Notes: generated by a model from the sequence alone, not told the origin. 64,000 nt of DNA from Trypanosoma brucei (GCA_000002445.1 CP000068.1:576001-640000), one strand, 5' to 3'. Positions 40,806 to 64,000 are shown, numbered from the stretch's first letter. Made by a program: numbers and translations.

Positions 40806-42294
40806 GCGGTGCACGAGGTTTCAAAACAATACAAATAAATATATATATATATATATATATATATTTGTATATATACATATATATCTACATTTATAAATAA
40901 ATATATAAATAAATATATAAATATTTATTTATACAAACAAAAAAACAAACAAGTAAATAAATAACTGACAACAGCGAGAAGAAAAGAAGAAACAGGAAAA
41001 AAAAAGTGATGAAATGAAATGAAATAAAATAAATAAATAAATAAAAGGCGGTAGTGTTACGTGAAGAGGGAGCGTAAACGGGAGGGGAAGGAAGAGAAGA
41101 GCAAAAGGAAAAAAAAATGAGACGATGATGATTTTTTAAAATATTGGATGAAATAAGGGTTTCGTATATGCGCGTAACAAAGTAAATGAGTAAATCAAAT
41201 TGCATTCATAAATATTTATACTTTCTATGATATTTATACTCATGTAATTTATACATTCATTTAATGTAATTGATTTTTTTTTTAAAAAGAAAGAAAAGAA
41301 AAAAATCGGATAAATTTTTGTCAAATCAGGGAAAAGAGGAAAAAGAAAGAAAAAATAGTAATTTTTGAAGTCTGGTAAATAAATAAATAAATAAATAAGT
41401 GTATAAGTTCAGAAATAATTTAAGTAACAAAGCAAGAACAAAGAAAAGAAGTGCAGAGGTAGGGGAGAAGGGAGGAAAAGTAAAACAAAAACACACACAC
41501 ACACAAAAAAAAAAAAGAAAGAAACAAAACAACACGTAATTAAAGGATTGGAGGAGGAGGAAGAAAAAAAAAAAGGGAAACAACCCTTGCAGCTGGTTCT
41601 GCATCTGGAAGCAAAAAAGAAAAAAAGAAAAAAAGAAAAAAGATAAGCTCGAAAGAGAGAAAGAAAATAGTTGCAGTGTTTCTATTAAGTAATTCTTTTT
41701 TGCTTTTGTTTGTATTTTTGTTTTGCCCAGCATAACCTGATCATTTGGCATTTTACTGGAGCTGACAGAAGAGGAAAAAAAAAAAAAGAAGAACACACAA
41801 AGGTGTGCTTTGCTTTTTGATTTTTTTAAAAAAAATTAATAATTGCCATGACCATCATAATTACTACTAATATTATCTTTATTGTTATTTTCATCATCAC
41901 TACTATTATTATTATTGTTGTTGTTATAACTATTACAGTTGTAGTTGTTATTACTATTGTTATTGTTTCATTTGCTTTGAACAGTGCATGTGTGTATACG
42001 AATCCCTTCATTTATTCATCCATTTCATTTTATTAACAAGTTTTTAAAAAAAAAACGAACCGCAACAAAAAGAAAACGAAAAAAAACAGAAGAACAACTG
42101 GTCCGTTGAGAACTTCTCGAGCCTTTGTCTTTTTTTTTTTTAGTTTGCTTTTCTTCTCTTTCCCCCCCCCCCGCATTATCTTCATATTTGTACACGTGAA
42201 CAATTTTTTAAAAAAAAAAGAAAAAAAAACATTTATTTGCTATTTCTTTCCTCCCGCTTTTTCCCACCAATTTTCTATTCGCTTGCCCTTACCC

Positions 42295-42295
<1 letters not shown>

Positions 42296-42330
<35 letters not shown>
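42296..42330. repeat. (ATT)n trinucleotide microsatellite, about 11 units
   Basis: Read directly. Similar (ATT/AAT)n runs occur at about 28,240, 34,040, 41,850–41,950, 48,120–48,240, 49,720, 50,705 and 51,860. Confidence 0.85.
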
Positions 42331-42331
<1 letters not shown>

Positions 42332-45075: not shown

Positions 45076-46161
45076 ATGCGCCCCACCGGAGTACGCTGTC
45101 TTGCTTCACCCCTCAGCTTAATGAGAGTTACCGGAACCCCCAACACCGGCCCCCGTGTGTTGTCGCCTGATGGTACGAAATTTTCATGGGATCCCTACAG
45201 CGGTGCATCCGTTGATGGAAGTGAAGTTTTCACCCAGTCACCTCATCTCGCCGCGCAGTTCCCCGGTCACGCGTCTCCTATTCAACTCCCTCCGCCCAAT
45301 GTGGCGTCGGATGGTGTCTCTTTTGCATCGACACTTAATTGGCAATCTCAAGGGGATGGCGGAGCAGCATATGATTCCTCAGTTGTTGGGTACTGGGAAG
45401 AAACCGGTCCCAACCGTGGCGCACTGCGACTTGGTTCCGATGAACAACAACAACAGCAACAGCAACAACATCAGTTATATCGGACAGGCCCACTCGCGCA
45501 AACGTTCTTCCAGACGACCGGCAGCGGTGCACCTCCCTTCGACAACGCCGTTGTTACGCATGGTGATGCTAACTTTAATTCAGGTTTTGGTGTGGTGGCA
45601 TCGCCGCATCGCCCATCATCGCGAGCGGGACGTTACGGCACTTCACGTGGTGTTTCTTTATCCGCCTCTCGAGGAAGATCTTTTGAATCCACTCCATTAT
45701 GGGGCCACGGGCAATCCGGAGCCGCAGAGAGAAAGCTTCCATTTAGACGTATGATCCCTCCGCCCGTCCCTTATGAACTTGCATTGCGTCAACTCTCCCG
45801 TTCGGGTCTTGCCGATCCCGAAAGGGTTCTCGAAGGAATTCTTCGTCACTGGCACAGGTCTACACAAGTTGCAGTCGGTGTACTTCGTAGCGAAGCTGCT
45901 TCTTCAGTTGAGGAAAGTTGCCCGTCCCCTCCTTCAGGAAATGACCGCGAAGCAATAGTCGAATGGGTGACACGTTGCGAGGGATGGTGGCAACAGAATT
46001 TTGGAACCCAACCCCGCAGCGGTGCTGACCGGCAAAATGCGGCTCATACGTTTAATGGAAATCGGGGACACAGATCCAATGATGGAAGGCGTCCTCATAC
46101 ATCAGGGGCTGCAAGTAGGAATAATCATGCATTCGCCGGCATGAACGGAAGAAGGGGGTGA
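45076..46161 (+). CDS. Pro/Ser/Gly-rich protein with a short poly-Q (about 361 aa), hypothetical
   Basis: Track start 45052 is TTG; the first ATG is at 45076 (MRPTGVRCL). It contains KFSWDPY (compare KYSWDPY in the upstream gene) and a poly-Q (EQQQQQQQQHQ). It is an isolated gene surrounded by more than 4 kb of low-complexity DNA on each side. Coordinates are ±1. Confidence 0.5.
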   Translation: MRPTGVRCLASPLSLMRVTGTPNTGPRVLSPDGTKFSWDPYSGASVDGSEVFTQSPHLAAQFPGHASPIQLPPPNVASDGVSFASTLNWQSQGDGGAAYDSSVVGYWEETGPNRGALRLGSDEQQQQQQQQHQLYRTGPLAQTFFQTTGSGAPPFDNAVVTHGDANFNSGFGVVASPHRPSSRAGRYGTSRGVSLSASRGRSFESTPLWGHGQSGAAERKLPFRRMIPPPVPYELALRQLSRSGLADPERVLEGILRHWHRSTQVAVGVLRSEAASSVEESCPSPPSGNDREAIVEWVTRCEGWWQQNFGTQPRSGADRQNAAHTFNGNRGHRSNDGRRPHTSGAASRNNHAFAGMNGRRG

Positions 46162-46199
46162 GAACAGAAGATTAAAAATGAAAAAGAAAAAGAAAAAAA

Positions 46200-49100
46200 A
46201 GGGGGGAGAATCAACAAGGTGGACATGTTGATTTCCCCCCCCCTTTTTTTTTCTTTTTCTTTTTTTGTTCTTCTTTTTCGACATGTGTCTGTTGTGCCCC
46301 TTCCTTCTATTCTCTCTTCACTCCACGCCTCCCCTCTCCACACACACATATATATATATAATATAATATATGATATATATATATATATATACATTTCTCC
46401 GCACCGGCTTTTTGTCGTGTGTTTATTTTTCATTTTTCTCTTTTTATTTAATTTCCTTTGTGAAGTTTCAACCAAAACAACACCAAACCATTTAAAAAGA
46501 AAAAAGATTTTTCTACCTTTTTTTGTTTTAACCTTGCGCGTGTGTCTTTTCCATTTTGGTTCTACCTGTACCTGTTGGTTCGTTTTTTTTTTTCTTTCCA
46601 CCTTTTAGACACTTTGGCGGATAATGATCTTCAGTGCTAAAATTGAAAATAACAGGAGTTGATCGAAAGTCTGATTTTTGTTTTCATTTTTTAAAAAATA
46701 TATTTTTGATATATTTCCCCTCCTTTTTTTAAAAAAGAAAAAGATGTCAGATAAGTGGGATAGAGGAACGACGGAGATAAATATAAATAAATATATATAA
46801 ATATATTAATACATGTGTTTCAACATATATATATATATATATTTACATGTACTTGTTTGTTTATATGTATTTATGCGCATAACAATAGCAGCGGAAGTGC
46901 GCTCGAGTGTGTAACTAGATGTTGTGATGGGAAAGAGAAAGGGGAAGAAGGGTGGGGGAAAAAAAGAAAGAAAGAAAAAACAGCGATCAATAAAGTTAAT
47001 AATAATTCCGCTAAGGGTTTACTCACAGGTGGCGTGTGTACGCAACCTGGGTGATGCAAGTGAAGAGGAGAAATTAATAAAATAAATTAATAAATTTATA
47101 AATATATAAATATATAAACATGTATGTATATATGTATGTATGTTTTCGACTGGGTTAGAGTAGATAAAGTGGATAAAACGGGAAAAGGTGAAAAAAAAAA
47201 ATACTGGATGACGAAGTGAAGAAGTGGAAGACTTGTTTTGTTTTTTTTTGTTTGTTTGTTTTATATCAACCATAATTTTGTTTCTTTTTTCATTTTCAAT
47301 CTGTTAGGTCAAATTAGGATGTTTTGTTTCTTCATTAGTGAAATATGTTTACTTATTTCATTTTCGTTTGTATGATCGCCTGTTTGTTTTCCATTTTGTT
47401 TTTGTTTTGGAAAAAAAAACTTTTGGTGGCGAGTTATATATTTCATATATTTTTATACTCTTTTACTACACTTCGTTTTTTTTTTCTTTGGGTGGAGGCC
47501 GCGTTTGTGTTTCACAGCAGCAAAAAAAAAAAAAAAGAATTCAATACCAAGAGCGATATAAAGTATATATATTATATACATATATATATATTATATTTTA
47601 TATTTTATATGTGTATATATGTGTGTGTGTGTGGATATGTGTGTGGATGCGTTGGGGGTTTTCCTTTTTTTGGGAGTGGTGTGTTTGTGTGTGTGTGTGG
47701 GAGAGAGAGAGAGAAAAAAAAAAATAAATAAATGGAAAATTAGGAAAAAGTGCAGGAGATTCTGTCGACTCTTTTCTAAGAAAAAAAAAATATATTCACA
47801 AGAAAGAAAAGAGAAAAAGTAAAAGATGAGGGAACAGTCCCTCTTTTTGTTTGTTTATTTTTCTTACTTTCTCTTTTTTTTTTTCATGATCTTCCTTCCC
47901 TTTTGGTTACAATCATCTTCCGTTTTTACCTCTTTTTTTAAAAAAAATTTTCCTTCTCTACTTTTTTTGGCGTCCCGCACGTCTGTCTGAGATTTCCCAT
48001 TAATTGTCCATTTAATCAATTTTTTTTAATAAAAAAAAGCGTTTTTTTTTCACTTTTTAGTAATAATAATTATTATTATTTTGTCTTTTTTTTCTTTTTC
48101 TTTTTCCTGGCTTCTTCCCATCCTTTTATTATTACTACTATTATTATTGTTATTGTTATTACCATTATTATTATTATTGTTATATTATTACCATTATTAG
48201 CATTTTTATGGTTATTATTATTATTATTATTATGTTCATTACAACACTCTTCCCCCCCCCCATATCCTCTCTCTTTTTTTTTTCCCCTCCCTCCCTCTTT
48301 CTTCTCCTCCTCCTTCCCTTTCTTTTTTTTTTCATCTCGACTTATTTTGTTACGAGATTTTTTGTTTTTGTTTTGTTTTTAATCCTTTTGGTTTTCACTC
48401 CCCAAATTAGGGCGGTTACGTAAAAAAAAAAACAAAATTTTTTTTTTCTTTTTATTTCCCCCTTTTTTGTTTTTTTTTTGGGTTTCTCTTTTCTTTTGTT
48501 TCTTTGTTGTTGTTTTTTTGTATTTTTCTTCTTATGAGGAGCGAAAAGGGCAGGGGAGAGGATTAAGGGGGAAAATAGGAAGAAGAAAAAATAAAAATAA
48601 AGAAACGAAACAAAAGGAAAGAAAATTAATAAATGGATAGATGAAAATAATCAACAACGATTTTTTTTTTTCCCCCTCCCCTTCCTAACAAAAAAAGAAA
48701 AAGGGGGTGCGGATTATTGTAATGACGACAGCGATAATAATCGCAATAAAAAGAATAAAATGTATAAATATATATATATATATATGTCTAAGCGCTCACG
48801 TTCGCAGTGTATCCCGTGATAATTTTACCTAAAAGAAGGTACGTTAAATAGGAGGAAAAGAAACAAACGAACATACACACACGCAAAAAACAAATAACAA
48901 ATAAGAAACAAACGAAAAGAGAAAAAGCGGAAATAATGAATGATAATACTTCTTGAGTTTGGCTTGTGTTGTGTGGTGCCTCACTTGTCAAAACACGACA
49001 AAACAAAGCAAAGAACTGTAAAAAACAAAAAAAAAGAAAAGAAAAGAAAAGAAGAACGGAAGAGGCGCGGTATAACAATGAAGAGCAAACGGATGTGGTT

Positions 49101-51859
49101 TGTTTTTTTTTTTTTGTGTGTGTGTGTTTGTTTGCCGCTGCTTCCCACGTTTCTTTATCTTTTTTTTTTAGAGGTAATAATAGTGTTGTTTTTGTTGTTG
49201 TTGTTGTTTTTTTTAATGCGAGAAAAGCGGAAGGAAAATTAGGAAGGAATGCGTTTAATTTCTTTTTTTAAAAAAAAAAAATAATAATAATCGTCATTAT
49301 TAATTTTTTTTGTCCCCGATGATTCCCATCCGTCACCATTTTTTTTTCTTTCCTTTTTTCTTTTTTTTTTTTGTTTATGTATTATTCGATTCGGTAAGTG
49401 CACAAAAAGACACCTTCGGGAACCGAAACCCTTAGTGGTAACCTGTTGTGGATTTTCCTTTTTTTTTCTTTTTTTTTTTGAAAGGAAAAGACAAAAATAA
49501 AAATAAAGGACAGAGCGGTGATTAAGTGAGCGATTAAAAAAAAAAAATAGAAGAAAAATATATACGAAGACATAGGAAAGAAACAAACATATATATATTA
49601 ATATGTTATATTTATATTATATTTATATATTATACAAGTTTCAATATGTATTCCAATCCTAAACAAGAGATGATAATGCACACACCGAAACGCAGAAACG
49701 GGTGCAATAATAATAAAAATAAAAGTAAAATAACAATAATAATAATAATAATGGTGGTGGTGATGGTGATGATTATGGAAATTGTTGTAAGACATTTATT
49801 ATTACAATAATTATTATGATCATCACAAGGCCCAATGAAGGGAGGGGGAAAAAAAAAGAAATAAAGTGAAACTTATAAAAACTCATTCCTTCCTATTCGA
49901 TCTTCCTACGAACATCTTTCAACGTAAGTGATAAAATTTGAGAAGTGAAAAAAAAACGAAAAGGAGACGCCAGTTAACACTTTCATGAAGTGGAGTTACT
50001 ATCTTGTTGTTACGAACCCGTGTTTTGTTTTTCCTCTTTCCTTCTCTATCTCTCTTTATTTTTATTTTTGTAACAAAACAGAAATAAATAAATAAGTGAG
50101 GTTTTTTAAATTTTAATTTTATTCATTGATGGATATATTTATATATTTATTTATATATGTTTATATTTATTTTTATTTTTCTCCCCCTTTCTTCCATTTC
50201 TTGAATTAGCAGCGGTTCCCACAAATACAAATACAAATACACCTCAACCTTAAATGATTATTTGGTGATGGTGATGATGATTAGAGTGGTACGAGTGACA
50301 CAACAACAACAAAAAAGAAAAAAAAGAAAAACACATAACATGACATAACATAAAATAAAATAAAATGCAGAAAAGGAAAAAGAAAAAGAATGCAAAGATA
50401 GAAAAGAAATAAAGCGAAGTGGCCGCCACTTTTGTTATCGATAAACGGAACCAATGCAAAAGCACAGGGTGAAAGGGACAGGAAAAAAAAAAAGGGAAAA
50501 GCGAAAACGAAAAAGGAAAAAAAAAAGTGACTAAAGGTATGTTTTTACATATTTCTCTGTATAGGAACTTATGTCGCGAATCGCCTGAAGAAAAAAAAAA
50601 GGGGCTAAAGAAAAATAGAAAGAAAGAACACAAAATGAACGAGGGAAATGAAAAGGTTTTTTTTTAAAAAAAAAGAAGCAGCAATCCGCTTCACTGTCAT
50701 CAGCTTTTTTTTTGTTTCTATTATTATTATTATTATTATTATGTTGTCTTTTACTGTTGTTGTTGTTGTTTCTTTCCCGTTTCTCCTACCTTATTTTCCT
50801 GGTCGTCGCTGATGCTGGAAATTCAAGAAAACACACACACAATTGAAAAAAAAAAAGCAAAAGCAATTAAATCAAAGGTGGTCACGGTTTCGCCAGGGTG
50901 ATGATCATATTTACAATAATTTTATCTTAGAAAGCTCTGGTGGTTAAATACAAGATGGAAGAGGGGATGGGAAAAAAAAAAAAGGAATACCGTGAACATA
51001 TATTACAGAGACCGGCTACTTGTGTAAATAAAAAGTGAAAAAAAAATCTTTTTTTTTTGGGGGGGGGTGGAGGGAGGGGGTTTCTCCCTATATTTATTTA
51101 TATTTGATATTTTTGTACCTTAAGATGCGGTATCGGTTGGGAGAATGGAGAGAGTTGGTGGGGAAAAAAATTGGGTCAAACATCAGAAAATGGAATGTGG
51201 GAAATTCGTATCAAACACTTAAGCGAAATTATCCAAATTTAACAAAGAAAAAAGGGAAAGTACTTTTTATAAATTTGTGATAGTACAAATGTTAACATGA
51301 ATAATTAATGAACCATAAACAAATGAATTTTAAATTCATTGGTGTTTGTACTTATATATATCTATATATTTACGGGTTTGCCATGTAGGCACTTTCTTGA
51401 GTTGAAAGGATGAAATTTCAGGGGTGGGGAGAAACAGCCGTTAAGGAGGAGTAAATAAAATGAATGAAAACAAAAACAGATGTATATAAACGTGCGTGTA
51501 AGCATAGCTGCATATTTATATTTGTGTGTTTTTGTTTTGTTTAAGTTCCTCCCCCTTTTTTGGCGGCGTACACCACGTAATTTTTCTCTTTTCCTCCGAT
51601 TTGTGTTGTGCGTGCGTATGTATGTGTATGTGTATGTGTGTGGTGGGGAGCAAAGCAAACGGAGGAGACGGGGAAATGGAAGGAAAATATTTAAAAAAAA
51701 AAGAAAAGACAAAGTAGAAGTGAGAGAAAGTAAAGAAACATAAATATAATGACACACCACCTTCCCATCTACCGGCTCCGTTTGAATTCTTTCAACTTTT
51801 CCATCCCTCGTTATTTTCAGGGAGCAGCTGTTGTTATCATTGTTATTACCTGTGATTGA

Positions 51860-51893
<34 letters not shown>

Positions 51894-52950
51894 GATGTTA
51901 TTCGTGTTCCCCTCCCTTTCTGTCCCACTTTCCCTCCTCTCTCTCTTTTTTTTTTTTTACCTCCGGTATTTCTGGTTTTCCGCTTATGTTTTTTCTTTCG
52001 AATTTCACTAAAGTAAACCACAACATCACAGTTATTTGATGTTGAACACCACCACCACCCCTTCCAAAAAAAAAAAAAAAAATCGAAAGCGGAGATAATG
52101 ACGATGAATGCGAGGAGAAGGTGTGATCGACGTTGCGATGGAAATGAATAGGAAAAAAAAAGGGGAACAATGATGTTAAGGAAAAAAAGCAGAAGAGAAA
52201 GAAAATGATGTCCTTCAGAGTGAAAACAACAGCAATAGTGACGATATGATAATAATTAACAAAAACAAGGATGGTGATGGCAATGATGATGTGAGAGAAA
52301 AGGAGAGAGAAAGAGTAGTGGAAATAAAGCGAGAGCCCGTGTACGAAAAAGAAGAGAAAAATTATATATGTATGCGAGAATATGTGCCTGTTTTCCCCCT
52401 ACAAGCTTTTTTTCCTTCTGCGCTTATCACTATTATTCATTTTTTTTATTTTTGCGCCATGGTGGTAGCGGATTTTAGTTAATGAAACGGGAAAAGAATA
52501 TATTGTTGTTTCTTCCGCTCCACCGACCTTACTTTTTTTTCATTTTTTTAAATTATTTTTGAAAATGCCATCGTTCGTTCTTTGATTAATCCGTCTTTTT
52601 TCCCCCGTCGTTTCGTTTGTCTTGTTTTGTTTTTCACTCGGTTTCTGTTTAACTTATTTCGTAGTGCAGGGTGAGGAGGTGGTCTGGGCCAATGAATAAT
52701 AATGACCATGCTAATGATAATAACGACAATACCAATTGGGGCAGTGGAACGCCGCTCCGGGAACATATAGCGAAGGACGAGGGCGGATAAGCGCAAGCAG
52801 AAGCAAAACTAGGGAAGGAACGTGGCGAGGCGGGCATATTCAAAAAAAACACATGAGAGTGCGCACAATGCCGTTTGCACGCATGAGGATACATGCATAT
52901 ATTTTTATATGTATGTTGTTTCACTTAAAATATATATTTACATATACGTA
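46200..52950. other. Gene-free low-complexity AT-rich region downstream of the last + strand gene
   Basis: No ORF with credible composition on either strand. It consists of alternating homopurine blocks (for example 48,540–49,080; 50,290–50,560; 52,140–52,340) and homopyrimidine blocks (46,230–46,600; 47,830–48,520; 49,080–49,460). These are interspersed with (ATT)n, (TA)n, poly(A) and poly(T) runs. Confidence 0.7.
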
Positions 52951-54049
52951 TATATTTTTAAAAGAATGCGTGTGTCCCGTCATCTCGTCGTCACACGTAG
53001 CCACCGGCTCGTGGACATGCGAGTGAAAACGGGTGCGGATGAGCATGCATGTGCGGTTGTGCGCGCGGGCGCGACTGCGTATGAATGTTTGCGACCGCCT
53101 GAACATGTTCGCAAATGTGTGTCCGGTGCCGGCGCACATTTGTGTGATATGATCATGGGTGATGGTGCGCGAGCAAAAGCATTCATCCAGCAACATGTAT
53201 GGTGCGTCGGTGGAAATACCGAGTTCCTCCAAGGGAACGTGAGCAGGGTCTCATGTTTTTTGAGGAAACCGGCCCGCCGGCGCCCGCGCTCCGGCGGGTG
53301 CACACTCGCATCATGGGATCACGCTTTAGTGTGCGTTTTTGAATATGCCTGCCACAACCCCGATCCAGTAGTTTTGTCTTTTCCTAAGCGTTGTAGCGTG
53401 CGCGGGGCGGGTCCCGTCATATACACGAGGACGTGCGCCTTCGCGGATGGAAATGGGTGGGGGTTTTGTGTGTGTCGTTTCCTTTAGCGATTAGCATTTG
53501 GTGGGCTTCGCTGAGGATGCAAAACGTCAGCACACCCCCCGCTTATTCCTATCTTGGAATGAGAAGAAAAGCACGCGCGCGTTTCGATCGCGGCCCTTTG
53601 GCGGTTGTTTGCCCTGTATCGGCCCTTCGATGCGATCGTGTCTTGTTCCTTTCACGAAGCACGCCGCTCATCCCCCCTTTGAAATTTGGGCTCAAATCGC
53701 CGTGTCGGTTTCCGGTTCGCGGTAGTCCCTTCTTTTCCCACCCCAAGAGGAGTCCCCAAGCTTTTTACCCCTTTTTAAAATTAAAATAATAATTTTCGGC
53801 CCTGGCGATCCCCGACCCTCGACTTCAGTAATCACCGAGTCCCATCGACCTGCTTTCTTCCACATCAAATTTTGAGCACCCCCCCCCTTTCTGCTGCTTT
53901 TTGCTGATACGCCCCCCCGGCCGCCCGCCGCTTTCTCCTCCGTCTCTTAACATCACCCCCCTCCCCCCATTCCTCCTTTTCTTTCATAGCATAGGTTATG
54001 CCCGCCCGGCCCCGCGCCCTTCCGCCACCACCCCCCCCCCGAACCGGCG

Positions 54050-56562
54050 CCCGTCACGGCCGCCCGACTTGCCACGGAAACATTCCTTCGCAACAGACGT
54101 CTCCCCCCCCCCCCCAACCCGGACACCCGACGGCGACCCCATTGAAACGCGCCCCTCTCGTTCTTACCGGTGAACAAGCTGTCCCCGCTCGGCACTCAAC
54201 CCTTCTGTTGCCCCACCTGCTTTTCTTTCACCTTTCTCGCCAAAAAATAAAATAAAATAAGGGAAAGCCACGCCGCGCGGTCGCGACGAGCGCGTTTTCA
54301 AAAGAAAAAAAGATTAGCTCAGGCGGAACCGTATCTCTCGTTTCGGAGAGGTTCTTTTTTATCATCTTTTAGAGAAAATTCGCCCAACGCCCGAAATCAT
54401 GGCGGGTTTCAATATCGACGGAAGGGTCGGACACCCCGGCCGGCTCTCGGGTCCGCCGGGGCGTGTACCGGTGCCTCAAAGTGGCCACCCGAACCCGGTG
54501 GCGGTTTATTGGCAGGCCGCGCCCTTCCCCGTGACCGCGGCATTCGCTGCCCCCCAACTCGTCGGGCCACCCCCCGTCTTTTTTTACCGAAGGGGGGCAA
54601 ACCACCCGGGTCCCGCCCCCCGACCACCAGCACCACCCCCTCGCCGTCATTTGGGAGTCGGCCCGAGCCCGCCGCCGCCTCGCTTTCGCGAAAACCGCAA
54701 TTTGTTTTCGGCGGGGGAGGTGGTTGGTTTCATTCGGTTGGCCCGGCGATGGGATGAAAAGGTAGCGGGGAGAGGGGCCGCCCATCACGCCCGCGGACCT
54801 CCGAATTTCGAATGGCCGCCGGAACCCGAGGACCCCTGGAAGGTTTTGGAGGATTGGTCGGAAACCCGAGCACGGTGGTGGCGCACCAGTCGGGCGGATC
54901 ATCGGGCACCGCGGCGCCGCCGGCCCTCAGGACCCCGCAGCAAAAAAAAAAATTTAAGACCTTTGGAAAAGGGGGTCGAGGTGCCTCGTCACTGATCCCC
55001 CCTCGCCCACGGTGTTTGAAAAAGCGACGACGCTGCCCGCCCACCCGCATTTTTTAAAAACGCGGTTCTTTTCGAAAACTCTAACATATCCTTTCCTGTT
55101 CGAAAAAACGTGCCGCTGTTCACAAACAGCCGCCACCCCTTTGCTACTCCAAAAAGCGTGAAGCTTTTTTGAATACAGGATATTGTCCCTTTTCCCTTCC
55201 CTTCGAAACAAATGGTGACTGTTCAGCACCGGTCCCCCGCTGCCCGTGTTCGGAAGGGGGCCTCGCCTTGCCTTACCTTGCCTCACCCAGCCCCACCTTG
55301 CCTCACCCAGCCCCACCTTGCCTTGCCTTTAAACGGAATACAAAAAACCTCATTCCCCCCGCACAAAAGTTCGCCCCTGGCGCGGTTAAGAGGTCCGGCG
55401 CAACGCTCCGCTTGCGTGGAGGGGGGCGAAGGTGGCCCGGGTGGAACCCGTCAGATTTTTTCCTTAGGAATTAGCCACGGGGCGGCATCGCCTTTGGGCC
55501 CGGCTACTCGCCGCCGGCAAGGAGAGTGGCCCCGCGACACACCCCCGATGAGGGCGGCTGCGATGACCGCCACGCCCTGGCGACGCCGGCCACCTCCACG
55601 TGGTGCCAGGGTCCAGTACCCCGCATCATCGGGGGAAGCCAAGAGCCAGCAGAGTTCCTTTCATGGGGAACACTGCTGTGCTCTGGCCTCGGCATCATAC
55701 AGCACAGGGATCAGCAGCGTCTTGCTGGGACACCGTTTTTCATTTGTCGGTCCCTGGGTCCGTGCCAGCGTGCCATCAGCAGTATCATCCGCACTAAGAT
55801 GCTGCTGTCCGGTGATGTGGAACTCCAAAAAAAAGGATTGCCAATTGACATCTTTTGGAGAGTCCGGGGTGGGAGGCCTCTCGCCCCATCTGCTGTATTC
55901 CGTTCAAATGCGGAAATACAACAAAAAATTATAGAGGGTGTGTTAGGATGAATGAAAAAGGGAGACTCTGCCACAGTCGCCAGACCGATAGCATCTCAGG
56001 GCTCTACGGTGATGGCTGATGGCCGCGCCAGTGGGGGGAAACTCTCACGAAGGCACGAAGAAAATTTCAAAAAAAAAAAAATGACCGTCACGGTGTTTGC
56101 GGCCGCCAACACGCCCGCGCATGGGTTTTTGGCTGCGTTTTCAAGGAGGATGAAGGGACACACGAGTTGGACGGCGGGGGATCAGGAACCCGCGGCGCCG
56201 GAAAAATGCGTTCGAATGTTTTGTTTGAGGGCGCCAAAGCACGCCTCGGGGGGTCGGGATGGCGGACGCCGATTTGCCCACTGCATCGGCGCTATGGGGA
56301 CGCGTGCTGGGGGCCCTAAGGCGGGTGAAAGTTCTGGGGAAACGGAAAGTTTGGCCTTCCGAAAAATGAAAGACGGCGGCGCCGGCGCCCCGGGTTTGCC
56401 ATAAGAAAACATCGAACCTTTATTTTTCTTTTAACCCCCGCATCATTGAGGGCGTTTCGCCGCACGACACCACCGGGGCGGCGCCGTGTCGGACAAAAAC
56501 CGGGCTAAGGGGGCGAGGCACCCCCATCGCTTTCGTCGAGACCCGGGAACCCCCCTTCCGTA
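54050..56562. repeat. Repeat copy 1 (2507-bp period; carries a 19-bp internal duplication and a C13 tract)
   Basis: Copy 1 contains cctcacccagccccaccttg twice (55,290–55,330). It occurs once in copies 2 and 3. About 10 point differences separate it from copies 2 and 3. Confidence 0.8.
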
Positions 56563-59054
56563 CGGCGCCGCCCGACTTGCCACGGAAACATTCCTTCGCA
56601 ACAGACGTCTCCCCCCCCCCCCAACCCGGACACCCGACGGCGACCCCATTGAAACGCGCCCCTCTCGTTCTTACCGGTGAACAAGCTGTCCCCGCTCGGC
56701 ACTCAACCCTTCTGTTGCCCCACCTGCTTTTCTTTCACCTTTCTCGCCAAAAAATAAAATAAAATAAGGGAAAGCCACGCCGCGCGGTCGCGACGAGCGC
56801 GTTTTCAAAAGAAAAAAAGATTAGCTCAGGCGGAACCGTATCTCTCGTTTCGGAGAGGTTCTTTTTTATCATCTTTTAGAGAAAATTCGCCCAACGCCCG
56901 AAATCATGGCGGGTTTCAATATCGACGGAAGGGTCGGACACCCCGGCCGGCTCTCGGGTCCGCCGGGGCGTGTACCGGTGCCTCAAAGTGGCCACCCGAA
57001 CCCGGTGGCGGTTTATTGGCAGGCCGCGCCCTTCCCCGTGACCGCGGCATTCGCTGCCCCCCAACTCGTCGGGCCACCCCCCGTCTTTTTTTACCGAAGG
57101 GGGGCAAACCACCCGGGTCCCGCCCCCCGACCACCAGCACCACCCCCTCGCCGTCATTTGGGAGTCGGCCCGAGCCCGCCGCCGCCTCGCTTTCGCGAAA
57201 ACCGCAATTTGTTTTCGGCGGGGGAGGTGGTTGGTTTCATTCGGTTGGCCCGGCGATGGGATGAAAAGGTAGCGGGGAGAGGGGCCGCCCATCACGCCCG
57301 CGGACCTCCGAATTTCGAATGGCCGCCGGAACCCGAGGACCCCTGGAAGGTTTTGGAGGATTGGTCGGAAACCCGAGCACGGTGGTGGCGCACCAGTCGG
57401 GCGGATCATCGGGCACCGCGGCGCCGCCGGCCCTCAGGACCCCGCAGCAAAAAAAAAAATTTAAGACCTTTGGAAAAGGGGGTCGAGGTGCCTCGTCACT
57501 GATCCCCCCTCGCCCACGGTGTTTGAAAAAGCGACGACGCTGCCCGCCCACCCGCATTTTTTAAAAACGCGGTTCTTTTCGAAAACTCTAACATATCCTT
57601 TCCTGTTCGAAAAAACGTGCCGCTGTTCACAAACAGCCGCCACCCCTTTGCTACTCCAAAAAGCGTGAAGCTTTTTTGAATACAGGATATTGTCCCTTTT
57701 CCCTTCCCTTCGAAACAAATGGTGACTGTTCAGCGCCGGTCCCCCGCTGCCCGTGTTCGGAAGGGGGCCTCGCCTTGCCTTACCTTGCCTCACCCAGCCC
57801 CACCTTGCCTTGCCTTTAAACGGAATACAAAAAACCTCATTCCCCCCGCACAAAAGTTCGCCCCTGGCGCGGTTAAGAGGTCCGGCGCAACGCTCCGCTT
57901 GCGTGGAGGGGGGCGAAGGTGGCCCGGGTGGAACCCGTCAGATTTTTTCCTTAGGAATTAGCCACGGGGCGGCATCGCCTTTGGGCCCGGCTACTCGCCG
58001 CCGGCAAGGAGAGTGGCCCCGCGACACACCCCCGATGAGGGCGGCTGCGATGACCGCCACGCCCTGGCGGCGCCGGCCACCTCCACGTGGTGCCAGGGTC
58101 CAGTACCCCGCATCATCGGGGGAAGCCAAGAGCCAGCAGAGTTCCTTTCATGGGGAACACTGCTGTGCTCTGGCCTCGGCATCATACAGCACAGGGATCA
58201 ACGGCGCCTTGCTGGGACACCGTTTTTCATTTGTCGGTCCCTGGGCACGTGCCAGCGTGCCATCAGCAGTATCATCCGCGCTAAGATGCTGCTGTCCGGT
58301 GATGTGGAACTCCAAAAAAAAAGGATTGCCAATTGACATCTTTTGGAGAGTCCGGGGTGGGAGGCTTCTCGCCCCATCTGCTGTATTCCGTTCAACTGCG
58401 GAAATACAACAAAAAATTATAGAGGGTGTGTTAGGATGAATGAAAAAGGGAGACTCTGCCACAGTCGCCAGACCGATAGCATCTCAGGGCTCTACGGTGA
58501 TGGCTGATGGCCGCGCCAGTGGGGGGAAACTCTCACGAAGGCACGAAGAAAATTTCAAAAAAAAAAAATGACCGCCACGGTGTTTGCGGCCGCCAACACG
58601 CCCGCGCATGGGTTTTTGGCTGCGTTTTCAAGGAGGATGAAGGGACACACGAGTTGGACGGCGGGGGATCAGGAACCCGCGGCGCCGGAAAAATGCGTTC
58701 GAATGTTTTGTTTGAGGGCGCCAAAGCACGCCTCGGGGGGTCGGGATGGCGGACGCCGATTTGCCCACTGCATCGGCGCTATGGGGACGCGTGCTGGGGG
58801 CCCTAAGGCGGGTGAAAGTTCTGGGGAAACGGAAAGTTTGGCCTTCCGAAAAATGAAAGACGGCGGCGCCGGCGCCCCGGGTTTGCCATAAGAAAACATC
58901 GAACCTTTATTTTTCTTTTAACCCCCGCATCATTGAGGGCGTTTCGCCGCACGACACCACCGGGGCGGCGCCGTGTCGGACAAAAACCGGGCTAAGGGGG
59001 CGAGGCACCCCCATCGCTTTCGTCGAGACCCGGGAACCCCCCTTCCGTACGGCG
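56563..59054. repeat. Repeat copy 2 (2488–2492 bp)
   Basis: Full-length copy. It differs from copy 3 at only a few positions (for example catacagc vs cgtacagc; ggcgcctt vs ggcgtctt). Confidence 0.8.
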
Positions 59055-61467
59055 CCGCCCGACTTGCCACGGAAACATTCCTTCGCAACAGACGTCTCCC
59101 CCCCCCCCCCAACCCGGACACCCGACGGCGACCCCATTGAAACGCGCCCCTCTCGTTCTTACCGGTGAACAAGCTGTCCCCGCTCGGCACTCAACCCTTC
59201 TGTTGCCCCACCTGCTTTTCTTTCACCTTTCTCGCCAAAAAATAAAATAAAATAAGGGAAAGCCACGCCGCGCGGTCGCGACGAGCGCGTTTTCAAAAGA
59301 AAAAAAGATTAGCTCAGGCGGAACCGTATCTCTCGTTTCGGAGAGGTTCTTTTTTATCATCTTTTAGAGAAAATTCGCCCAACGCCCGAAATCATGGCGG
59401 GTTTCAATATCGACGGAAGGGTCGGACACCCCGGCCGGCTCTCGGGTCCGCCGGGGCGTGTACCGGTGCCTCAAAGTGGCCACCCGAACCCGGTGGCGGT
59501 TTATTGGCAGGCCGCGCCCTTCCCCGTGACCGCGGCATTCGCTGCCCCCCAACTCGTCGGGCCACCCCCCGTCTTTTTTTACCGAAGGGGGGCAAACCAC
59601 CCGGGTCCCGCCCCCCGACCACCAGCACCACCCCCTCGCCGTCATTTGGGAGTCGGCCCGAGCCCGCCGCCGCCTCGCTTTCGCGAAAACCGCAATTTGT
59701 TTTCGGCGGGGGAGGTGGTTGGTTTCATTCGGTTGGCCCGGCGATGGGATGAAAAGGTAGCGGGGAGAGGGGCCGCCCATCACGCCCGCGGACCTCCGAA
59801 TTTCGAATGGCCGCCGGAACCCGAGGACCCCTGGAAGGTTTTGGAGGATTGGTCGGAAACCCGAGCACGGTGGTGGCGCACCAGTCGGGCGGATCATCGG
59901 GCACCGCGGCGCCGCCGGCCCTCAGGACCCCGCAGCAAAAAAAAAAATTTAAGACCTTTGGAAAAGGGGGTCGAGGTGCCTCGTCACTGATCCCCCCTCG
60001 CCCACGGTGTTTGAAAAAGCGACGACGCTGCCCGCCCACCCGCATTTTTTAAAAACGCGGTTCTTTTCGAAAACTCTAACATATCCTTTCCTGTTCGAAA
60101 AAACGTGCCGCTGTTCACAAACAGCCGCCACCCCTTTGCTACTCCAAAAAGCGTGAAGCTTTTTTGAATACAGGATATTGTCCCTTTTCCCTTCCCTTCG
60201 AAACAAATGGTGACTGTTCAGCGCCGGTCCCCCGCTGCCCGTGTTCGGAAGGGGGCCTCGCCTTGCCTTACCTTGCCTCACCCAGCCCCACCTTGCCTTG
60301 CCTTTAAACGGAATACAAAAAACCTCATTCCCCCCGCACAAAAGTTCGCCCCTGGCGCGGTTAAGAGGTCCGGCGCAACGCTCCGCTTGCGTGGAGGGGG
60401 GCGAAGGTGGCCCGGGTGGAACCCGTCAGATTTTTTCCTTAGGAATTAGCCACGGGGCGGCATCGCCTTTGGGCCCGGCTACTCGCCGCCGGCAAGGAGA
60501 GTGGCCCCGCGACACACCCCCGATGAGGGCGGCTGCGATGACCGCCACGCCCTGGCGGCGCCGGCCACCTCCACGTGGTGCCAGGGTCCAGTACCCCGCA
60601 TCATCGGGGGAAGCCAAGAGCCAGCAGAGTTCCTTTCATGGGGAACACTGCTGTGCTCTGGCCTCGGCATCGTACAGCACAGGGATCAACGGCGTCTTGC
60701 TGGGACACCGTTTTTCATTTGTCGGTCCCTGGGCACGTGCCAGCGTGCCATCAGCAGTATCATCCGCGCTAAGATGCTGCTGTCCGGTGATGTGGAACTC
60801 CAAAAAAAAAGGATTGCCAATTGACATCTTTTGGAGAGTCCGGGGTGGGAGGCTTCTCGCCCCATCTGCTGTATTCCGTTCAACTGCGGAAATACAACAA
60901 AAAATTATAGAGGGTGTGTTAGGATGAATGAAAAAGGGAGACTCTGCCACAGTCGCCAGACCGATAGCATCTCAGGGCTCTACGGTGATGGCTGATGGCC
61001 GCGCCAGTGGGGGGAAACTCTCACGAAGGCACGAAGAAAATTTCAAAAAAAAAAAATGACCGCCACGGTGTTTGCGGCCGCCAACACGCCCGCGCATGGG
61101 TTTTTGGCTGCGTTTTCAAGGAGGATGAAGGGACACACGAGTTGGACGGCGGGGGATCAGGAACCCGCGGCGCCGGAAAAATGCGTTCGAATGTTTTGTT
61201 TGAGGGCGCCAAAGCACGCCTCGGGGGGTCGGGATGGCGGACGCCGATTTGCCCACTGCATCGGCGCTATGGGGACGCGTGCTGGGGGCCCTAAGGCGGG
61301 TGAAAGTTCTGGGGAAACGGAAAGTTTGGCCTTCCGAAAAATGAAAGACGGCGGCGCCGGCGCCCCGGGTTTGCCATAAGAAAACATCGAACCTTTATTT
61401 TTCTTTTAACCCCCGCATCATTGAGGGCGTTTCGCCGCACGACACCACCGGGGCGGCGCCGTGTCGG
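59055..61467. repeat. Repeat copy 3 (lacks the last ~75 bp of the unit)
   Basis: Homology to the copy-2 junction sequence (acaaaaaccgggctaaggggg...) is lost after ...ggcgccgtgtcgg at about 61467. Confidence 0.8.
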
Positions 61468-64000
61468 TGGTGAAATGTTAGTGGGGCGTTTAGCGCGTGC
61501 CAAGTGGGGTGAGGTTATCCAATTTGGAAAGGTGCATACCTGGTGGGGTGGGGTTGGCGATAGGTAGTCCTCGGAGGGTCTCGTTGTCCGCATCAGTCGT
61601 TGCGTATGATGGTCTTTTTGCGCAATTTCATTGTGAAATTGTCGTCGTTGGTCTTGTTTATGGAATTGCTGAAGTGTTCGGTAAATGCCCTAATTGTCTC
61701 CTGTTGTTGGTGGTGGTGGGGAGGGAAGATTCGACTCTCCCTTTTTCCCAAGCCCCCACAATAATTTACGACGGATGATGTAATCTTTTACTGGAAGTGG
61801 GGCTGTCGCCGAAAGCTTTGTCCTAACACCCCTCAATTTGTTCGCATTCCCTCTTGTCCTCGCCTTGCTTCTTGCGGTGGTGTGTGTTATGTAGGTTTCT
61901 GAACGCTACGGTTTCAAACAGCCGCATTTCCGTTCAAACATGTTTAGTGTCGGATAATTTCCGACACCGCATATCTGTTTCCTTAGCTTCTCCACTCTAA
62001 ATGTCCGGTTTAAAATATACTTTTATACTTAGCCATTGAACTTCTCTGCTGCGTTTCTGATTCTTCATGCTCCTCCACTGGTTTGTGGCCTTTGGTAGTG
62101 GGAATTTTTGAGGGAAAGTAACACCAACTCCCGTAACGTCGTCGCTATGGAATTCAGGCCTGTGGTTGCTATGTCGCTGGATTAGCGCTACGGTAACGAA
62201 AAAGCACGATGCCCCATTTTTTAATCCACATTGCTCAAATCTTCCCACATGCTCACGGGGATGTGAAGGAGACGGACATAGAAGACTTTTTATCGTTCTT
62301 TCCCAAATTTTAACCAAATTTCCTCCTCCACCAATTATTGAAGATCCTTTGGAAGAGACCCCCCTCCAGCCCTTTACATCACCCAATTTTCTTGGAAACT
62401 TCTTGCTTGATTCTCTGACGAGGAGCATCCTCTACCGAGATAAGTTTCGCCTCCTCCATTGCCAACAAACACAAGCGTCCCGGGGACTATCGGAAAGCGT
62501 TGATATTCTTGTTGGATTAATAAAGCTGAAAAAAAAAAGCCCAACCTTCCTGCGACAAGCCCTGCTGTCCCTACGGCCGTGTATCCAATGTATCTCAACC
62601 TTTTCAACTCTCCTCTTCACTTTATTCCCCACGCGCTTCAAAAATATCGTAATTCCTTTGTGAAAGGCTCGGATATTAACGTCCTCCTCCTTTCTTCTAA
62701 CCCTCAAAATTCTCAACTCCATCAACTTGACAGTACCTTCACTCTCTCACTTTCTCTGTTTCGCATTTCGTTTCCGCATGGGTGAAGGCGTACAGCGATT
62801 TCGACCCTTTTTTGCCGCACCAAAAAGTGCGTGTTCACCGTCGCTAAAACTCAACCTTTCGCCGTCTACGGCCACAGAACTTCCAAAGAGAAGGAACACA
62901 GCCACCGACACTCTCGTATCCGCATATGAAATACGCGTGTTTCCGCGGAGTCGAGGGGAAAAGCCGTGACAGCCATTTTAGGGAGTACGCGAAGGGTGGG
63001 GCGGCTTCAACGAGAATGGATATTCTCCTTTGTTGACTGTTATTTTCTGCTTATTGGGCAACACCGGGGTGGAAGTGATGACGATTGATGGGAGAAGGGA
63101 AAGTGATACGAACAGGAACGTTTATATTTAACTTTCCCCGAATAACATGGCTAGGAAGATGGGCTGAACCGCGTCGATGAGACGTACCAATCGGGGCGCC
63201 AGGAGACCCACGTAGAAATGCGAGCATGGATGCGGGTGTGACCGTGGTGTGGGGCTTTTGCTCTGGGGAGGTGAAGGAACTGCGCGAAACTGCCAGGAGT
63301 TCGCCTCGTCCTCCCAGCTGTTGCCTGCGTGAGGGAAGTTTTTATGGCCAACTGAAATGGAGAGTCATAACCACATTCTATTTGGCGAATGAGCACAATA
63401 ATGGCAGGGATTCGTTTAGGACAACAGCGGTGACGAGAGCGGGGAGCATACTCACGGCGCGAATGTTAGTTGGGAAGCTTCAATATTCTATGGAAGAACG
63501 GCAAAAAGTACAGTTGTCTGTTTTCTGCCAACAAAGGTTCACCACCAGCCCCACCGCACAACTAATGATGCGAGCAAGGTGTGTGCAAATACAAAATAGG
63601 AACTGAACGGTGGGAATTACACCATTTTGCGCATGGACTATTGGTGAACACTTGAAAACATCATTTGGGGACAACCCTCTACCGTTACAAAGTCTAAAGG
63701 GGAAAAAGCAAAGAAACGCAACGCGACCGCGTTGTGACACAAGTTCCATGTGCGTTGAAAGTTGAATCTGGAAAATCGGCTCTGTCAAGCACCGGTGACG
63801 AGCACACGGCGATGGAAGTAAAGGAACTGGCAACCATTCGAAGTCGGAAATGTCAAGGTTCACTTGTTCTCTCTTGCATGTTTCGCGGTGAGCGGGCTCC
63901 AAGGAGAAATGAGACTATTGGACGCAACGTATTAGCCAACCTTGAAGGTGAGAGACGCACAACAACGGGGAACATTGGGACATTTTCAGTTCGCACACCC

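What the first reader, a model, noticed from the sequence alone, without database searches (positions are those of the whole stretch)
54050..61467. Unclassified GC-rich 2.5-kb tandem macro-repeat (×3) at the end of the polycistron
Three head-to-tail copies of a ~2.49–2.51 kb unit, about 99% identical and above 60% GC, sit in a gene-free zone flanked by about 35–40% GC DNA. The unit has no credible protein-coding frame. Its ORFs are P/R/G-rich artefacts of GC-rich sequence on both strands, and a 19-bp indel in copy 1 shifts and fuses them. I found no SL RNA, 5S, rRNA or tRNA signature. The unit does not resemble the kinetoplastid repeat classes I know (147-bp or 177-bp satellites, 50-bp or 70-bp repeats, telomeric repeats, SL or 5S arrays). 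Its position after the last gene of a long unidirectional cluster suggests three candidate roles. It could be a structural chromosomal element (centromere-associated or strand-switch), an array of non-coding RNA genes, or a set of degenerate retroelement-derived repeats.
Basis: partly seen in the sequence, partly recalled or inferred. Interest (0 to 1): 0.8.

Follow-up and report, generated by a model that had tools for sequence, protein, structure and literature searches.

The report
Tandem-duplicated GC-rich spacer carrying RIME retroposons
The three 2.5-kb repeats are real, but they are a recent, strain-variable tandem duplication of non-coding spacer DNA where two gene clusters converge on Trypanosoma brucei chromosome 5, and each copy carries a known RIME mobile element, so this is ordinary structural variation, not a new chromosomal element.

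Summary
Window 54059-61467 contains 2.97 head-to-tail copies (periods 2507 and 2488 nt) that are 98.6-99.9% identical and about 60% GC. They show no coding signal and no known RNA family.

The window is T. brucei brucei TREU927 chromosome 5. The array lies after Tb927.5.2000, in a convergent strand-switch region, because the next genes in the syntenic DAL972 locus are on the minus strand.

The unit is not wholly unclassified. About 20% of each copy is a 506-nt TbRIME retroposon. It consists of the ingi 5' end joined to the ingi 3' end, has a poly(A) tail, and is flanked by a 12-nt target-site duplication. Other strains have an empty site.

The other ~1.98 kb of each unit is unique GC-rich DNA. 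It shows no similarity to ingi proteins, no Pfam hit and no excess RNA structure. It evolves faster than the neighbouring intergenic DNA.

Copy number and retroposon occupancy differ between strains (one copy in IVM-t1, two in DAL972).

The chromosome 5 centromere maps elsewhere (Tb927.5.600-610). The locus probably corresponds to the published siRNA-producing convergent unit CTU13.

Verdict: a recent segmental tandem duplication in a transcription-termination zone. Interest is low.

The parts
54059..61467 (.). Tandem array of 2.97 copies of a 2488-2507-nt unit, about 60% GC
54059..56566 (.). Copy 1 (2508 nt). It carries one extra 20-nt microsatellite unit at 55275-55294.
56567..59053 (.). Copy 2 (2487 nt)
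59054..61467 (.). Copy 3 (2414 nt). It is truncated and lacks the 74-nt junction segment. It differs from copy 2 by two substitutions and one 1-nt indel.
55575..56080 (+). TbRIME retroposon in copy 1. The 5' half matches the ingi 5' end (94.8% identity), the 3' half matches the ingi 3' end (92.2%), and it ends in A12.
58062..58567 (+). TbRIME retroposon in copy 2
60550..61055 (+). TbRIME retroposon in copy 3
55563..55574 (+). 12-nt target-site duplication ATGACCGCCACG, left of RIME 1. The right copy is at 56081-56092. The same pairs occur at 58050-58061/58568-58579 and 60538-60549/61056-61067.
   Evidence: Empty sites ATTGCCGCCACG and ATGGCCGCCACG in IVM-t1 and the last DAL972 copy are shown.
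56493..56566 (.). 74-nt junction segment between copies, also present at 58980-59053. It has no match in either flank. The same segment is present in DAL972.
55275..55323 (.). 20-nt microsatellite (ACCTTGCCTCACCCAGCCCC), 2.5 units in copy 1 and 1.5 units in copies 2 and 3. This explains the 20-nt indel.
52750..54058 (.). Non-repeated GC-rich shoulder (54% GC) to the left of the array. It is part of the same GC-rich island.
45076..46161 (+). Tb927.5.2000 (T. brucei spp.-specific protein), the last annotated gene of the plus-strand cluster

Best explanation
The feature is a recent, strain-polymorphic tandem segmental duplication in the convergent strand-switch (transcription-termination) region downstream of Tb927.5.2000 on T. 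brucei TREU927 chromosome 5.

Each unit has two parts:
- about 1.98 kb of locus-specific, non-coding, GC-rich spacer;
- one 506-nt TbRIME non-autonomous retroposon in the plus orientation.

Inferred history:
1. A single-copy GC-rich spacer, the state seen in T. b. equiperdum IVM-t1, was duplicated in tandem. A 74-nt filler was left at the junction.
2. An ingi/RIME element inserted into one copy by target-primed reverse transcription, creating the 12-nt duplication ATGACCGCCACG.
3. In the TREU927 lineage, unequal crossing-over or gene conversion spread the RIME-bearing version to all three copies.

The array most likely has no dedicated sequence-specific function. It is passive DNA in the zone where the two converging polycistronic units end. 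By inference, transcripts from both strands overlap there and are processed by DCL2 into siRNAs, as published for all T. brucei convergent units, including CTU13 on chromosome 5. The Pr77-type 5' ends of the three RIMEs may add plus-strand transcription.

Shown: repeat structure, RIME identity, polymorphism between strains, non-coding nature, fast evolution, convergent context. Inferred: the order of events, the equivalence with CTU13, and the absence of function.
For: Locus identity:
- Exact matches to TREU927 chromosome 5 proteins, including Tb927.5.2000.
- The downstream genes in syntenic DAL972 are on the minus strand.

Repeat structure.

RIME identity:
- The first 249 nt are 93.6-94.8% identical to the 5' end of a 5265-bp ingi, and the last 254-258 nt are 92-93% identical to its 3' end.
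- That reference ingi carries the Exo_endo_phos, RVT_1 and RNase_H ORFs.
- The element has a poly(A) tail and an exact 12-nt direct repeat on both sides.
- A 12-bp TSD is the rule for Tbingi/TbRIME (PMC3820030).
- The element starts CCCTGGCGGCGCCGG. The L1Tc Pr77 5' primer is CCCTGGCTCAGCCGG.
- Translated relatives include ingi 5' ORFs and the old T. brucei 'ORF 1' entry.

Polymorphism between strains:
- IVM-t1 has one copy with an empty site.
- DAL972 has two copies with the same 74-nt junction. One has ingi 3' sequence at the same site and one is empty.
- A Logan contig from another isolate has the occupied site.

Recency: outside the RIME, the copies differ at about 2 of 1981 positions.

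No constraint: substitution divergence between strains is 2.6-4.5% in the GC island, against 1.3-1.8% in AT-rich intergenic DNA and 0.4-0.55% in CDS.

Non-coding and non-structured.

siRNA link: CTU13 at Tb927_05_v4 630600-639800 gives 2401 reads from both strands, reduced to 1.1% of wild type in dcl2-/- cells.
Against: - The origin of the 60% GC spacer is unexplained. It is about 25 percentage points above its left flank.
- The 74-nt junction filler has no identifiable source.
- The link to CTU13 rests on the order and spacing of convergent units and on DAL972 and IVM-t1 coordinates. I could not obtain TREU927 coordinates.
- The single copy in IVM-t1 and the gap-containing DAL972 region could partly reflect assembly collapse.
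- 'No function' is a negative inference. A sequence-independent role, such as termination, R-loop formation or recombination, is not excluded.
Confidence: 0.72

Rival explanations
1. The GC-rich island is a functional, sequence-composition-dependent element of the convergent strand-switch region. It could be a Pol II termination or boundary element, or an R-loop or G4-prone block. The amplification in TREU927 would then change its strength.
For: It sits at the point of convergence. Its composition contrasts sharply with the flanks. GC skew changes sign within each unit, and each unit has one C-tract G4 motif on the minus strand. Convergent units are known siRNA sources.
Against: It has the highest substitution rate in the region. 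Copy number varies from 1 to 3 between strains, and there are indels of 49-50 nt. There is only one G4 motif per 2.5 kb. I found no literature describing GC-rich blocks as a general feature of T. brucei convergent regions.
Confidence: 0.1
2. The whole unit, not only the RIME, derives from retroelements. The GC-rich 1.98 kb would be an ancient DIRE-, VIPER- or SIDER-like remnant too decayed to recognise, into which a RIME later inserted.
For: Retroposons of this clade accumulate in strand-switch regions (PMC4748587 abstract). T. cruzi GC-rich strand-switch domains are made of degenerate retroelements. The GC part contains internal A-runs (A11 at 54942). Ingi/RIME elements often insert next to one another.
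Against: tblastn with all ingi ORF pieces gives nothing below E=0.1 outside the RIME halves. BLASTN against the full ingi gives only the RIME halves. No RVT, Exo_endo_phos, RNase H or integrase Pfam hit is found at E<=1 in six frames. There is no period-3 remnant. The 198-aa and 240-aa unit ORFs have no relatives at other loci except RIME/ingi copies.
Confidence: 0.1
3. The array is a set of non-coding RNA genes, such as snoRNA-cluster-like or lncRNA genes, repeated in tandem.
For: Trypanosomatid snoRNA clusters are tandemly repeated units of similar size (my own knowledge). The array has three near-identical copies.
Against: There are no Rfam matches, and the only weak C/D-box hits score far below their gathering scores. 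Folding z-scores are -1.13 and +0.87. The sequence is the fastest-evolving in the region and is single-copy in another strain. It lies beyond the last gene, in a termination zone.
Confidence: 0.04
4. The array is a centromere-associated structural repeat.
For: It is a tandem repeat at a strand-switch region with a retroposon, which resembles the general setting of trypanosome centromeres.
Against: The chromosome 5 centromere is mapped to the 148-bp, 62% AT array between Tb927.5.600 and Tb927.5.610. [quoted passage not shown] No 147-bp array exists in the window. The unit here is GC-rich and present in only 3 copies.
Confidence: 0.02
5. The array is an assembly artefact, a collapsed or over-expanded repeat in the reference.
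For: IVM-t1 shows one copy. The T. equiperdum OVI contig stops 19 nt before the array. DAL972 has a gap here.
Against: The copies carry distinguishing variants: a 20-nt indel and about 12 substitutions between copy 1 and copies 2/3, and two substitutions plus a 1-nt indel between copies 2 and 3. The same copy-to-copy junction with its 74-nt filler is found independently in DAL972.
Confidence: 0.04

Closest known systems
TbRIME / Tbingi non-LTR retroposons (ingi clade)
   Same: The 506-nt segment in each unit has the RIME architecture: ingi 5' ~250 nt joined to ingi 3' ~255 nt. It has a Pr77-type start, a poly(A) tail and a 12-nt TSD. Other strains have an empty site, and DAL972 has an ingi at the same site.
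   Different: It makes up only about 20% of each unit. Its three copies arose by DNA-level duplication of the host segment, not by three separate retrotranspositions, because the TSDs and flanks are identical.
T. brucei convergent transcription units (CTUs) that yield DCL2-dependent siRNAs (Tschudi et al. 2012, PMC3447711)
   Same: The gene clusters converge here. It is the only convergent unit in this part of chromosome 5. CTU13 spans 9.2 kb, close to the 9-kb size of the GC-rich island.
   Different: The paper does not describe a macro-repeat or a GC-rich block. The coordinate match is inferred, not verified.
T. cruzi GC-rich strand-switch centromeric domains made of degenerate retroelements (Obado et al. 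2005, 2007)
   Same: It is a GC-rich domain between directional gene clusters and contains a retroelement.
   Different: In T. brucei, centromeres are AT-rich short-repeat arrays, and the chromosome 5 centromere is elsewhere. The GC-rich DNA here is not recognisably retroelement-derived.
Segmental tandem duplications with concerted evolution, as seen in trypanosome gene arrays
   Same: The copies are head to tail and near-identical, with a copy number that varies between strains. Variants are homogenised within a lineage: the DAL972 copies share DAL972-specific SNPs, and the TREU927 copies share TREU927-specific ones.
   Different: The duplicated segment contains no gene.

Membership tests
TbRIME (non-autonomous ingi-clade retroposon) | The 5' part is identical in origin to the 5' end of ingi | tested here: met
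   249 nt at 93.6-94.8% identity to L005 2486-2734, the 5' end of a 5265-bp ingi. In translation it matches ingi 5' ORFs up to just before the 2A/endonuclease region.
TbRIME (non-autonomous ingi-clade retroposon) | The 3' part is identical in origin to the 3' end of ingi, and the internal coding region is deleted | tested here: met
   254-258 nt at 92-93% identity to L005 7497-7750. There are no APE, RT or RNase H hits. The total length is 506 nt.
TbRIME (non-autonomous ingi-clade retroposon) | 12-bp target-site duplication and a 3' poly(dA) tail | tested here: met
   ATGACCGCCACG lies on both sides of all three copies, with one T/C mismatch in copy 1, and the tail is A11-12. The 12-bp rule is stated in PMC3820030.
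TbRIME (non-autonomous ingi-clade retroposon) | An empty site exists in related genomes, which proves insertion | tested here: met
   IVM-t1 and the last DAL972 copy have ...GGCTGCG-AT(T/G)GCCGCCACG-GTG... with no insert.
TbRIME (non-autonomous ingi-clade retroposon) | The conserved ingi4-type endonuclease recognition pattern lies upstream of the insertion site | not tested
   The consensus is shown only in a figure of PMC3820030, which is not held as text.
T. brucei centromere | An AT-rich array of short (~30, 120 or 147-bp) repeats at the mapped topoisomerase-II site | tested here: not met
   There is no such array in the window. The unit is 60% GC and 2.5 kb long. The chromosome 5 site is Tb927.5.600-610.
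T. brucei centromere | Kinetochore protein (KKT) occupancy or etoposide cleavage | not testable with these tools
   This needs ChIP-seq or cleavage data mapped to the locus.
[quoted passage not shown] | Residual protein-level similarity to the ingi/L1Tc APE, RT or RNase H domains | tested here: not met
   tblastn gives nothing below E=0.1 outside the RIME halves. There is no Pfam hit at E<=1 in six frames.
Convergent transcription unit / termination region | Two directional gene clusters point towards each other | tested here: met
   Plus-strand ORFs run through the window up to 46161. In syntenic DAL972, minus-strand genes start 2.3 kb beyond the equivalent of the window end.
Convergent transcription unit / termination region | siRNAs from both strands; H3.V, H4.V and base J enrichment | tested here: inconclusive
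   Published siRNA counts exist for CTU13, but its identity with this locus is inferred from position only. Chromatin marks are not testable here.
Structured ncRNA gene array | A match to a known RNA family, or excess or conserved secondary structure | tested here: not met
   No Rfam match. Folding z-scores of -1.13 and +0.87.

The most novel reading that the evidence does not exclude
The unique, fast-evolving 60% GC island at the exact point where two polycistronic units converge could be a recombination and GC-biased gene-conversion hotspot, or a composition-dependent termination or siRNA-generating element. Its copy number (1 to 3 between strains) would then tune read-through and dsRNA production at this locus. 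That would make it a natural allelic series for studying Pol II termination in trypanosomes.
Probability: 0.08. Interest if true: 0.5.

Novelty: new member of a known kind. Interest (0 to 1): 0.2.

Why it matters
This matters little beyond genome annotation. It shows that a conspicuous 'unclassified' macro-repeat in the T. brucei reference is a polymorphic segmental duplication carrying a RIME.

It is a compact example of how strand-switch regions change: tandem duplication, retroposon insertion, RIME/ingi exchange at one site, and homogenisation of copies.

It is relevant for read-mapping artefacts at this locus, such as apparent siRNA or ChIP enrichment, and as a possible strain marker.

If the GC island turned out to influence termination, the natural 1-3 copy series would be a convenient test system.

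Tried and rejected
- Rfam at gathering score on the whole window and at E<=5 on 52500-59200: nothing credible. tRNA scan: none.
- Pfam on the unit ORFs and on all six frames of 52700-57000: nothing.
- Exact look-ups of nine ORFs in and beside the array in the protein collection: none on record. A tenth ORF, in the right flank at 63226-63606, is on record and was used to fetch the DAL972 locus.
- Homologue search with the 198-aa unit ORF: only the DAL972 and Logan allele, so that part of the unit is single-locus.
- Exhaustive HMMER search with the 240-aa ORF: the only hits besides the DAL972 allele fall in the RIME segment. This was the lead to RIME.
- Look-up of TREU927 coordinates through P0019: not on record, so the CTU13 match stays inferred.
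- Search for the source of the 74-nt junction filler and of the 593-nt DAL972 piece next to its gap: no match anywhere in the sequences held.
- Sensitive self-comparison of the single-copy GC island for older internal repeats: nothing meaningful.
- The bacterial promoter and terminator scan is not applicable to a trypanosome and was ignored.
- G4 scan: one motif per unit, not remarkable.
- Centromere idea: rejected from the literature.
- rDNA-spacer idea, prompted by RIME's history: rejected because no rRNA model matches.
Full report
**Where the window comes from.** The 369-aa ORF at 45052-46161 is 100% identical to a 'T. brucei spp.-specific protein'. Exact look-ups of five window proteins return Trypanosoma brucei brucei TREU927 chromosome 5 entries on a 1,608,198-bp record, among them Tb927.5.2000. 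All large ORFs of the window lie on the plus strand, so this is one polycistronic cluster. Tb927.5.2000 (45076-46161) is its last annotated gene.

**The observation.**
- The repeat finder and a self-BLAST show 2.97 head-to-tail copies between 54059 and 61467. The periods are 2507 and 2488 nt and pairwise identity is 98.6-99.9%.
- GC is about 0.60 across the array.
- The GC-rich zone is wider than the array. A non-repeated 54% GC shoulder starts near 52750.
- The left flank beyond the shoulder is 25-40% GC. The right flank is 44-51% GC.
- The indel that distinguishes copy 1 is 20 nt. It is one extra unit of a 20-nt microsatellite.

**Coding and RNA tests.**
- The period-3 spectral signal is 1.0-1.9 in the unit and its flanks. 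It is 5.3-10.6 in four genes of the same window and about 1.4-1.5 in shuffles.
- Six-frame Pfam scans give nothing at E<=1.
- Rfam gives nothing at gathering score and only chance-level matches at E<=5. There is no tRNA.
- Folding energies of the first 1 kb of the unit do not differ from dinucleotide shuffles on either strand (z = -1.13 and +0.87).

**Genomic context.** I fetched the syntenic loci through flanking proteins: T. equiperdum OVI (L001), T. b. gambiense DAL972 (L002, L004) and T. b. equiperdum IVM-t1 (L003). In DAL972 the genes beyond the right end of the window are on the minus strand. They include an 869-aa protein with a weak MutL_C match. The array therefore lies in a convergent strand-switch region, where two polycistronic units end.

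**Centromere.** The chromosome 5 centromere has been mapped by etoposide cleavage to a 148-bp, 62% AT array between Tb927.5.600 and Tb927.5.610. [quoted passage not shown] No such array is present in the window. The centromere reading is rejected.

**What the unit is made of.** A multiple alignment was made of the three TREU927 copies, the IVM-t1 sequence and the two DAL972 copies.
- A ~506-nt segment is present in all three TREU927 copies but absent from IVM-t1 and from the last DAL972 copy.
- The segment is bounded by the direct repeat ATGACCGCCACG and ends in A11-12. The empty sites read ATTGCCGCCACG and ATGGCCGCCACG.
- An exhaustive HMMER search with the 240-aa unit ORF found relatives only in this segment, apart from the DAL972 allele.
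- Those relatives are T. brucei 'unlikely' ORFs. One continues into ...LLSGDVEENPGPSLRGMQWNCAGL..., which I recognise from my own knowledge as the 2A peptide and endonuclease start of ingi/L1Tc. One cluster contains the old GenBank 'ORF 1 [Trypanosoma brucei]' entry.
- A search with the first of those relatives returned proteins named 'Tbingi protein' and 'Endonuclease-reverse transcriptase'.
- Fetching the DNA around one of these gave a complete 5265-bp ingi with Exo_endo_phos, RVT_1 and RNase_H ORFs (L005 2486-7750).
- BLASTN shows that the first 249 nt of the segment match the ingi 5' end (93.6-94.8%) and the last 254-258 nt match its 3' end (92-93%).

This is the architecture of TbRIME, an ingi with its interior deleted. 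A 12-bp target-site duplication is the rule for Tbingi/TbRIME (PMC3820030). The element begins CCCTGGCGGCGCCGG, close to the L1Tc Pr77 5' primer CCCTGGCTCAGCCGG.

Each unit therefore carries one RIME in the plus orientation, at 55575-56080, 58062-58567 and 60550-61055.

**The remaining 1.98 kb per unit.**
- tblastn with every ORF piece (>=40 aa, three frames) of the full ingi finds only the RIME halves. Nothing scores below E=0.1 for the endonuclease, reverse transcriptase, RNase H or zinc-finger regions.
- BLASTN against the whole ingi also finds only the RIME halves.
- The 198-aa ORF of this part has no relative among 5.8 billion clustered proteins other than its DAL972 and Logan allele.
- The N-terminal part of the 240-aa ORF likewise hits only the DAL972 allele.

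The GC-rich part is thus a locus-specific, non-coding sequence and not a detectable DIRE. Its origin and the reason for its 60% GC remain unexplained.

**Variation between strains.**
- IVM-t1 is collinear with window 50001-55574 and then jumps to 61060. It has one copy, no junction and an empty RIME site.
- DAL972 has two copies joined by the same 74-nt junction segment as TREU927 (98.6% identical).
- The last DAL972 copy has the empty site. In the first DAL972 copy, the RIME 3' half is preceded by ingi internal 3' sequence (L004 4796-5580 matches L005 6711-7495 at 95%). So an ingi occupies the site where TREU927 has a RIME. The 5' side of that DAL972 copy is lost in an assembly gap.
- A short-read contig from another isolate (ERR7929156) shows the occupied site with the same target-site duplication.
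- The T. equiperdum OVI contig ends 19 nt before the array, as expected if short reads could not cross it.

Within TREU927, the copies differ at about 2 of 1981 positions outside the RIME but at 10 of 506 positions inside it (Fisher p = 5e-6). This suggests ectopic gene conversion with other RIME/ingi copies, or a higher local mutation rate.

Between strains, substitution divergence is 2.6-4.5% in the GC island. It is 1.3-1.8% in the adjacent AT-rich intergenic DNA, 0.4-0.55% in coding sequence and 0.6% in the right flank. The island is the least constrained sequence in the region.

**Most likely history (inferred).**
1. A single-copy GC-rich spacer was duplicated in tandem, leaving a 74-nt filler of unknown source.
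2. An ingi/RIME element inserted into one copy.
3. Unequal crossing-over or gene conversion then produced three RIME-bearing copies in the TREU927 lineage. DAL972 kept one occupied and one empty copy.
4. IVM-t1 either retains the single-copy state or collapsed back to it.

**Function.**
- Nothing points to a sequence-specific role.
- By position, the array is part of a termination zone.
- All 49 convergent units surveyed by Tschudi et al. accumulate small RNAs, nearly all DCL2-dependent.
- On chromosome 5, the only convergent unit between 450 and 870 kb is CTU13 (630.6-639.8 kb). It has 2401 reads from both strands, falling to 1.1% of wild type in dcl2-/- cells.
- The syntenic locus lies at about 584-592 kb in DAL972 and about 678 kb in IVM-t1. 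CTU13 is therefore very probably this region, and its 9.2-kb span is similar to the 9-kb GC island.
- I could not obtain TREU927 coordinates to prove the match.
- The three RIME 5' ends carry the Pr77 hallmark, which acts as an internal promoter in L1Tc (PMC4748587). They may add plus-strand transcripts. This is inference.

**Comparison and verdict.**
- The RIME segments pass every family test I could run.
- The array fails the tests for a T. brucei centromere, a DIRE and a structured ncRNA array.
- It fits a convergent-unit spacer that has undergone a recent segmental duplication.
Its interpretation is partly supported: strand-switch location yes, retroelement in part, centromere and ncRNA no.
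- I did not find this macro-repeat described in the papers I searched, but it belongs to known kinds (retroposon plus segmental duplication). Interest is low.
- The one open oddity is the unexplained, fast-evolving 60% GC island itself.

Noticed in passing
window 55575-56080 vs 58062-58567 and 60550-61055: Differences between array copies are concentrated in the RIME: 10 of 506 nt, against 2 of 1981 nt elsewhere (Fisher p = 5e-6). At these sites copy 1 and copies 2/3 each match a reference ingi at some positions. This suggests ectopic gene conversion with other RIME/ingi copies after the duplication.
   Followed up: partly
L004 4102-4694 (DAL972 FN554968.1, about 584.2 kb): In DAL972 the left flank stops at the equivalent of window 54021. 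It is followed by 593 nt that match neither ingi, nor the window, nor any fetched locus, and then by a 100-N gap. This may be a misjoin or an unknown insertion. The retroposon's 5' junction in DAL972 is therefore unresolved.
   Followed up: partly
window 61468-64000: The right flank diverges by only 0.59% from DAL972. That is as low as coding sequence and 3-5 times lower than the GC island. A 126-aa 'hypothetical protein, unlikely' ORF (63226-63606) is identical in DAL972. This could be a long 3' UTR of the converging minus-strand gene, or an unannotated feature.
   Followed up: no
protein P0027: A 67-aa 'hypothetical protein Smp_186500' annotated in Schistosoma mansoni clusters at 90% identity or more with the old T. 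brucei 'ORF 1' entry (P0029). P0029 aligns with the ORF that spans the junction of the two RIME halves in the unit. This looks like trypanosome contamination or an annotation artefact in that Schistosoma record.
   Followed up: no
window 38000-52700: The last ~15 kb of the plus-strand cluster is gene-poor and only 25-37% GC. It has many microsatellites ((ATT)n, (TTA)36, (TA)21, (ATAT)n). It contains only the T. brucei-specific gene Tb927.5.2000 and one 359-aa ORF. It looks like a lineage-specific, decaying end of the polycistron.
   Followed up: no
alignment A1 columns 1123-1171 and 1271-1321 (window ~55180 and 55275-55323): IVM-t1 and DAL972 share a 49-nt segment that TREU927 lacks, and they lack the ~50-nt microsatellite block that TREU927 has. 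The GC island accumulates medium-sized indels as well as substitutions.
   Followed up: no
L001 end (T. equiperdum OVI CZPT02001654.1), equivalent to window 54040: The OVI contig is nearly identical to TREU927 in this region (0-0.8% divergence). It terminates 19 nt before the array starts. This suggests that the strain also carries a repeat that short reads could not resolve.
   Followed up: no
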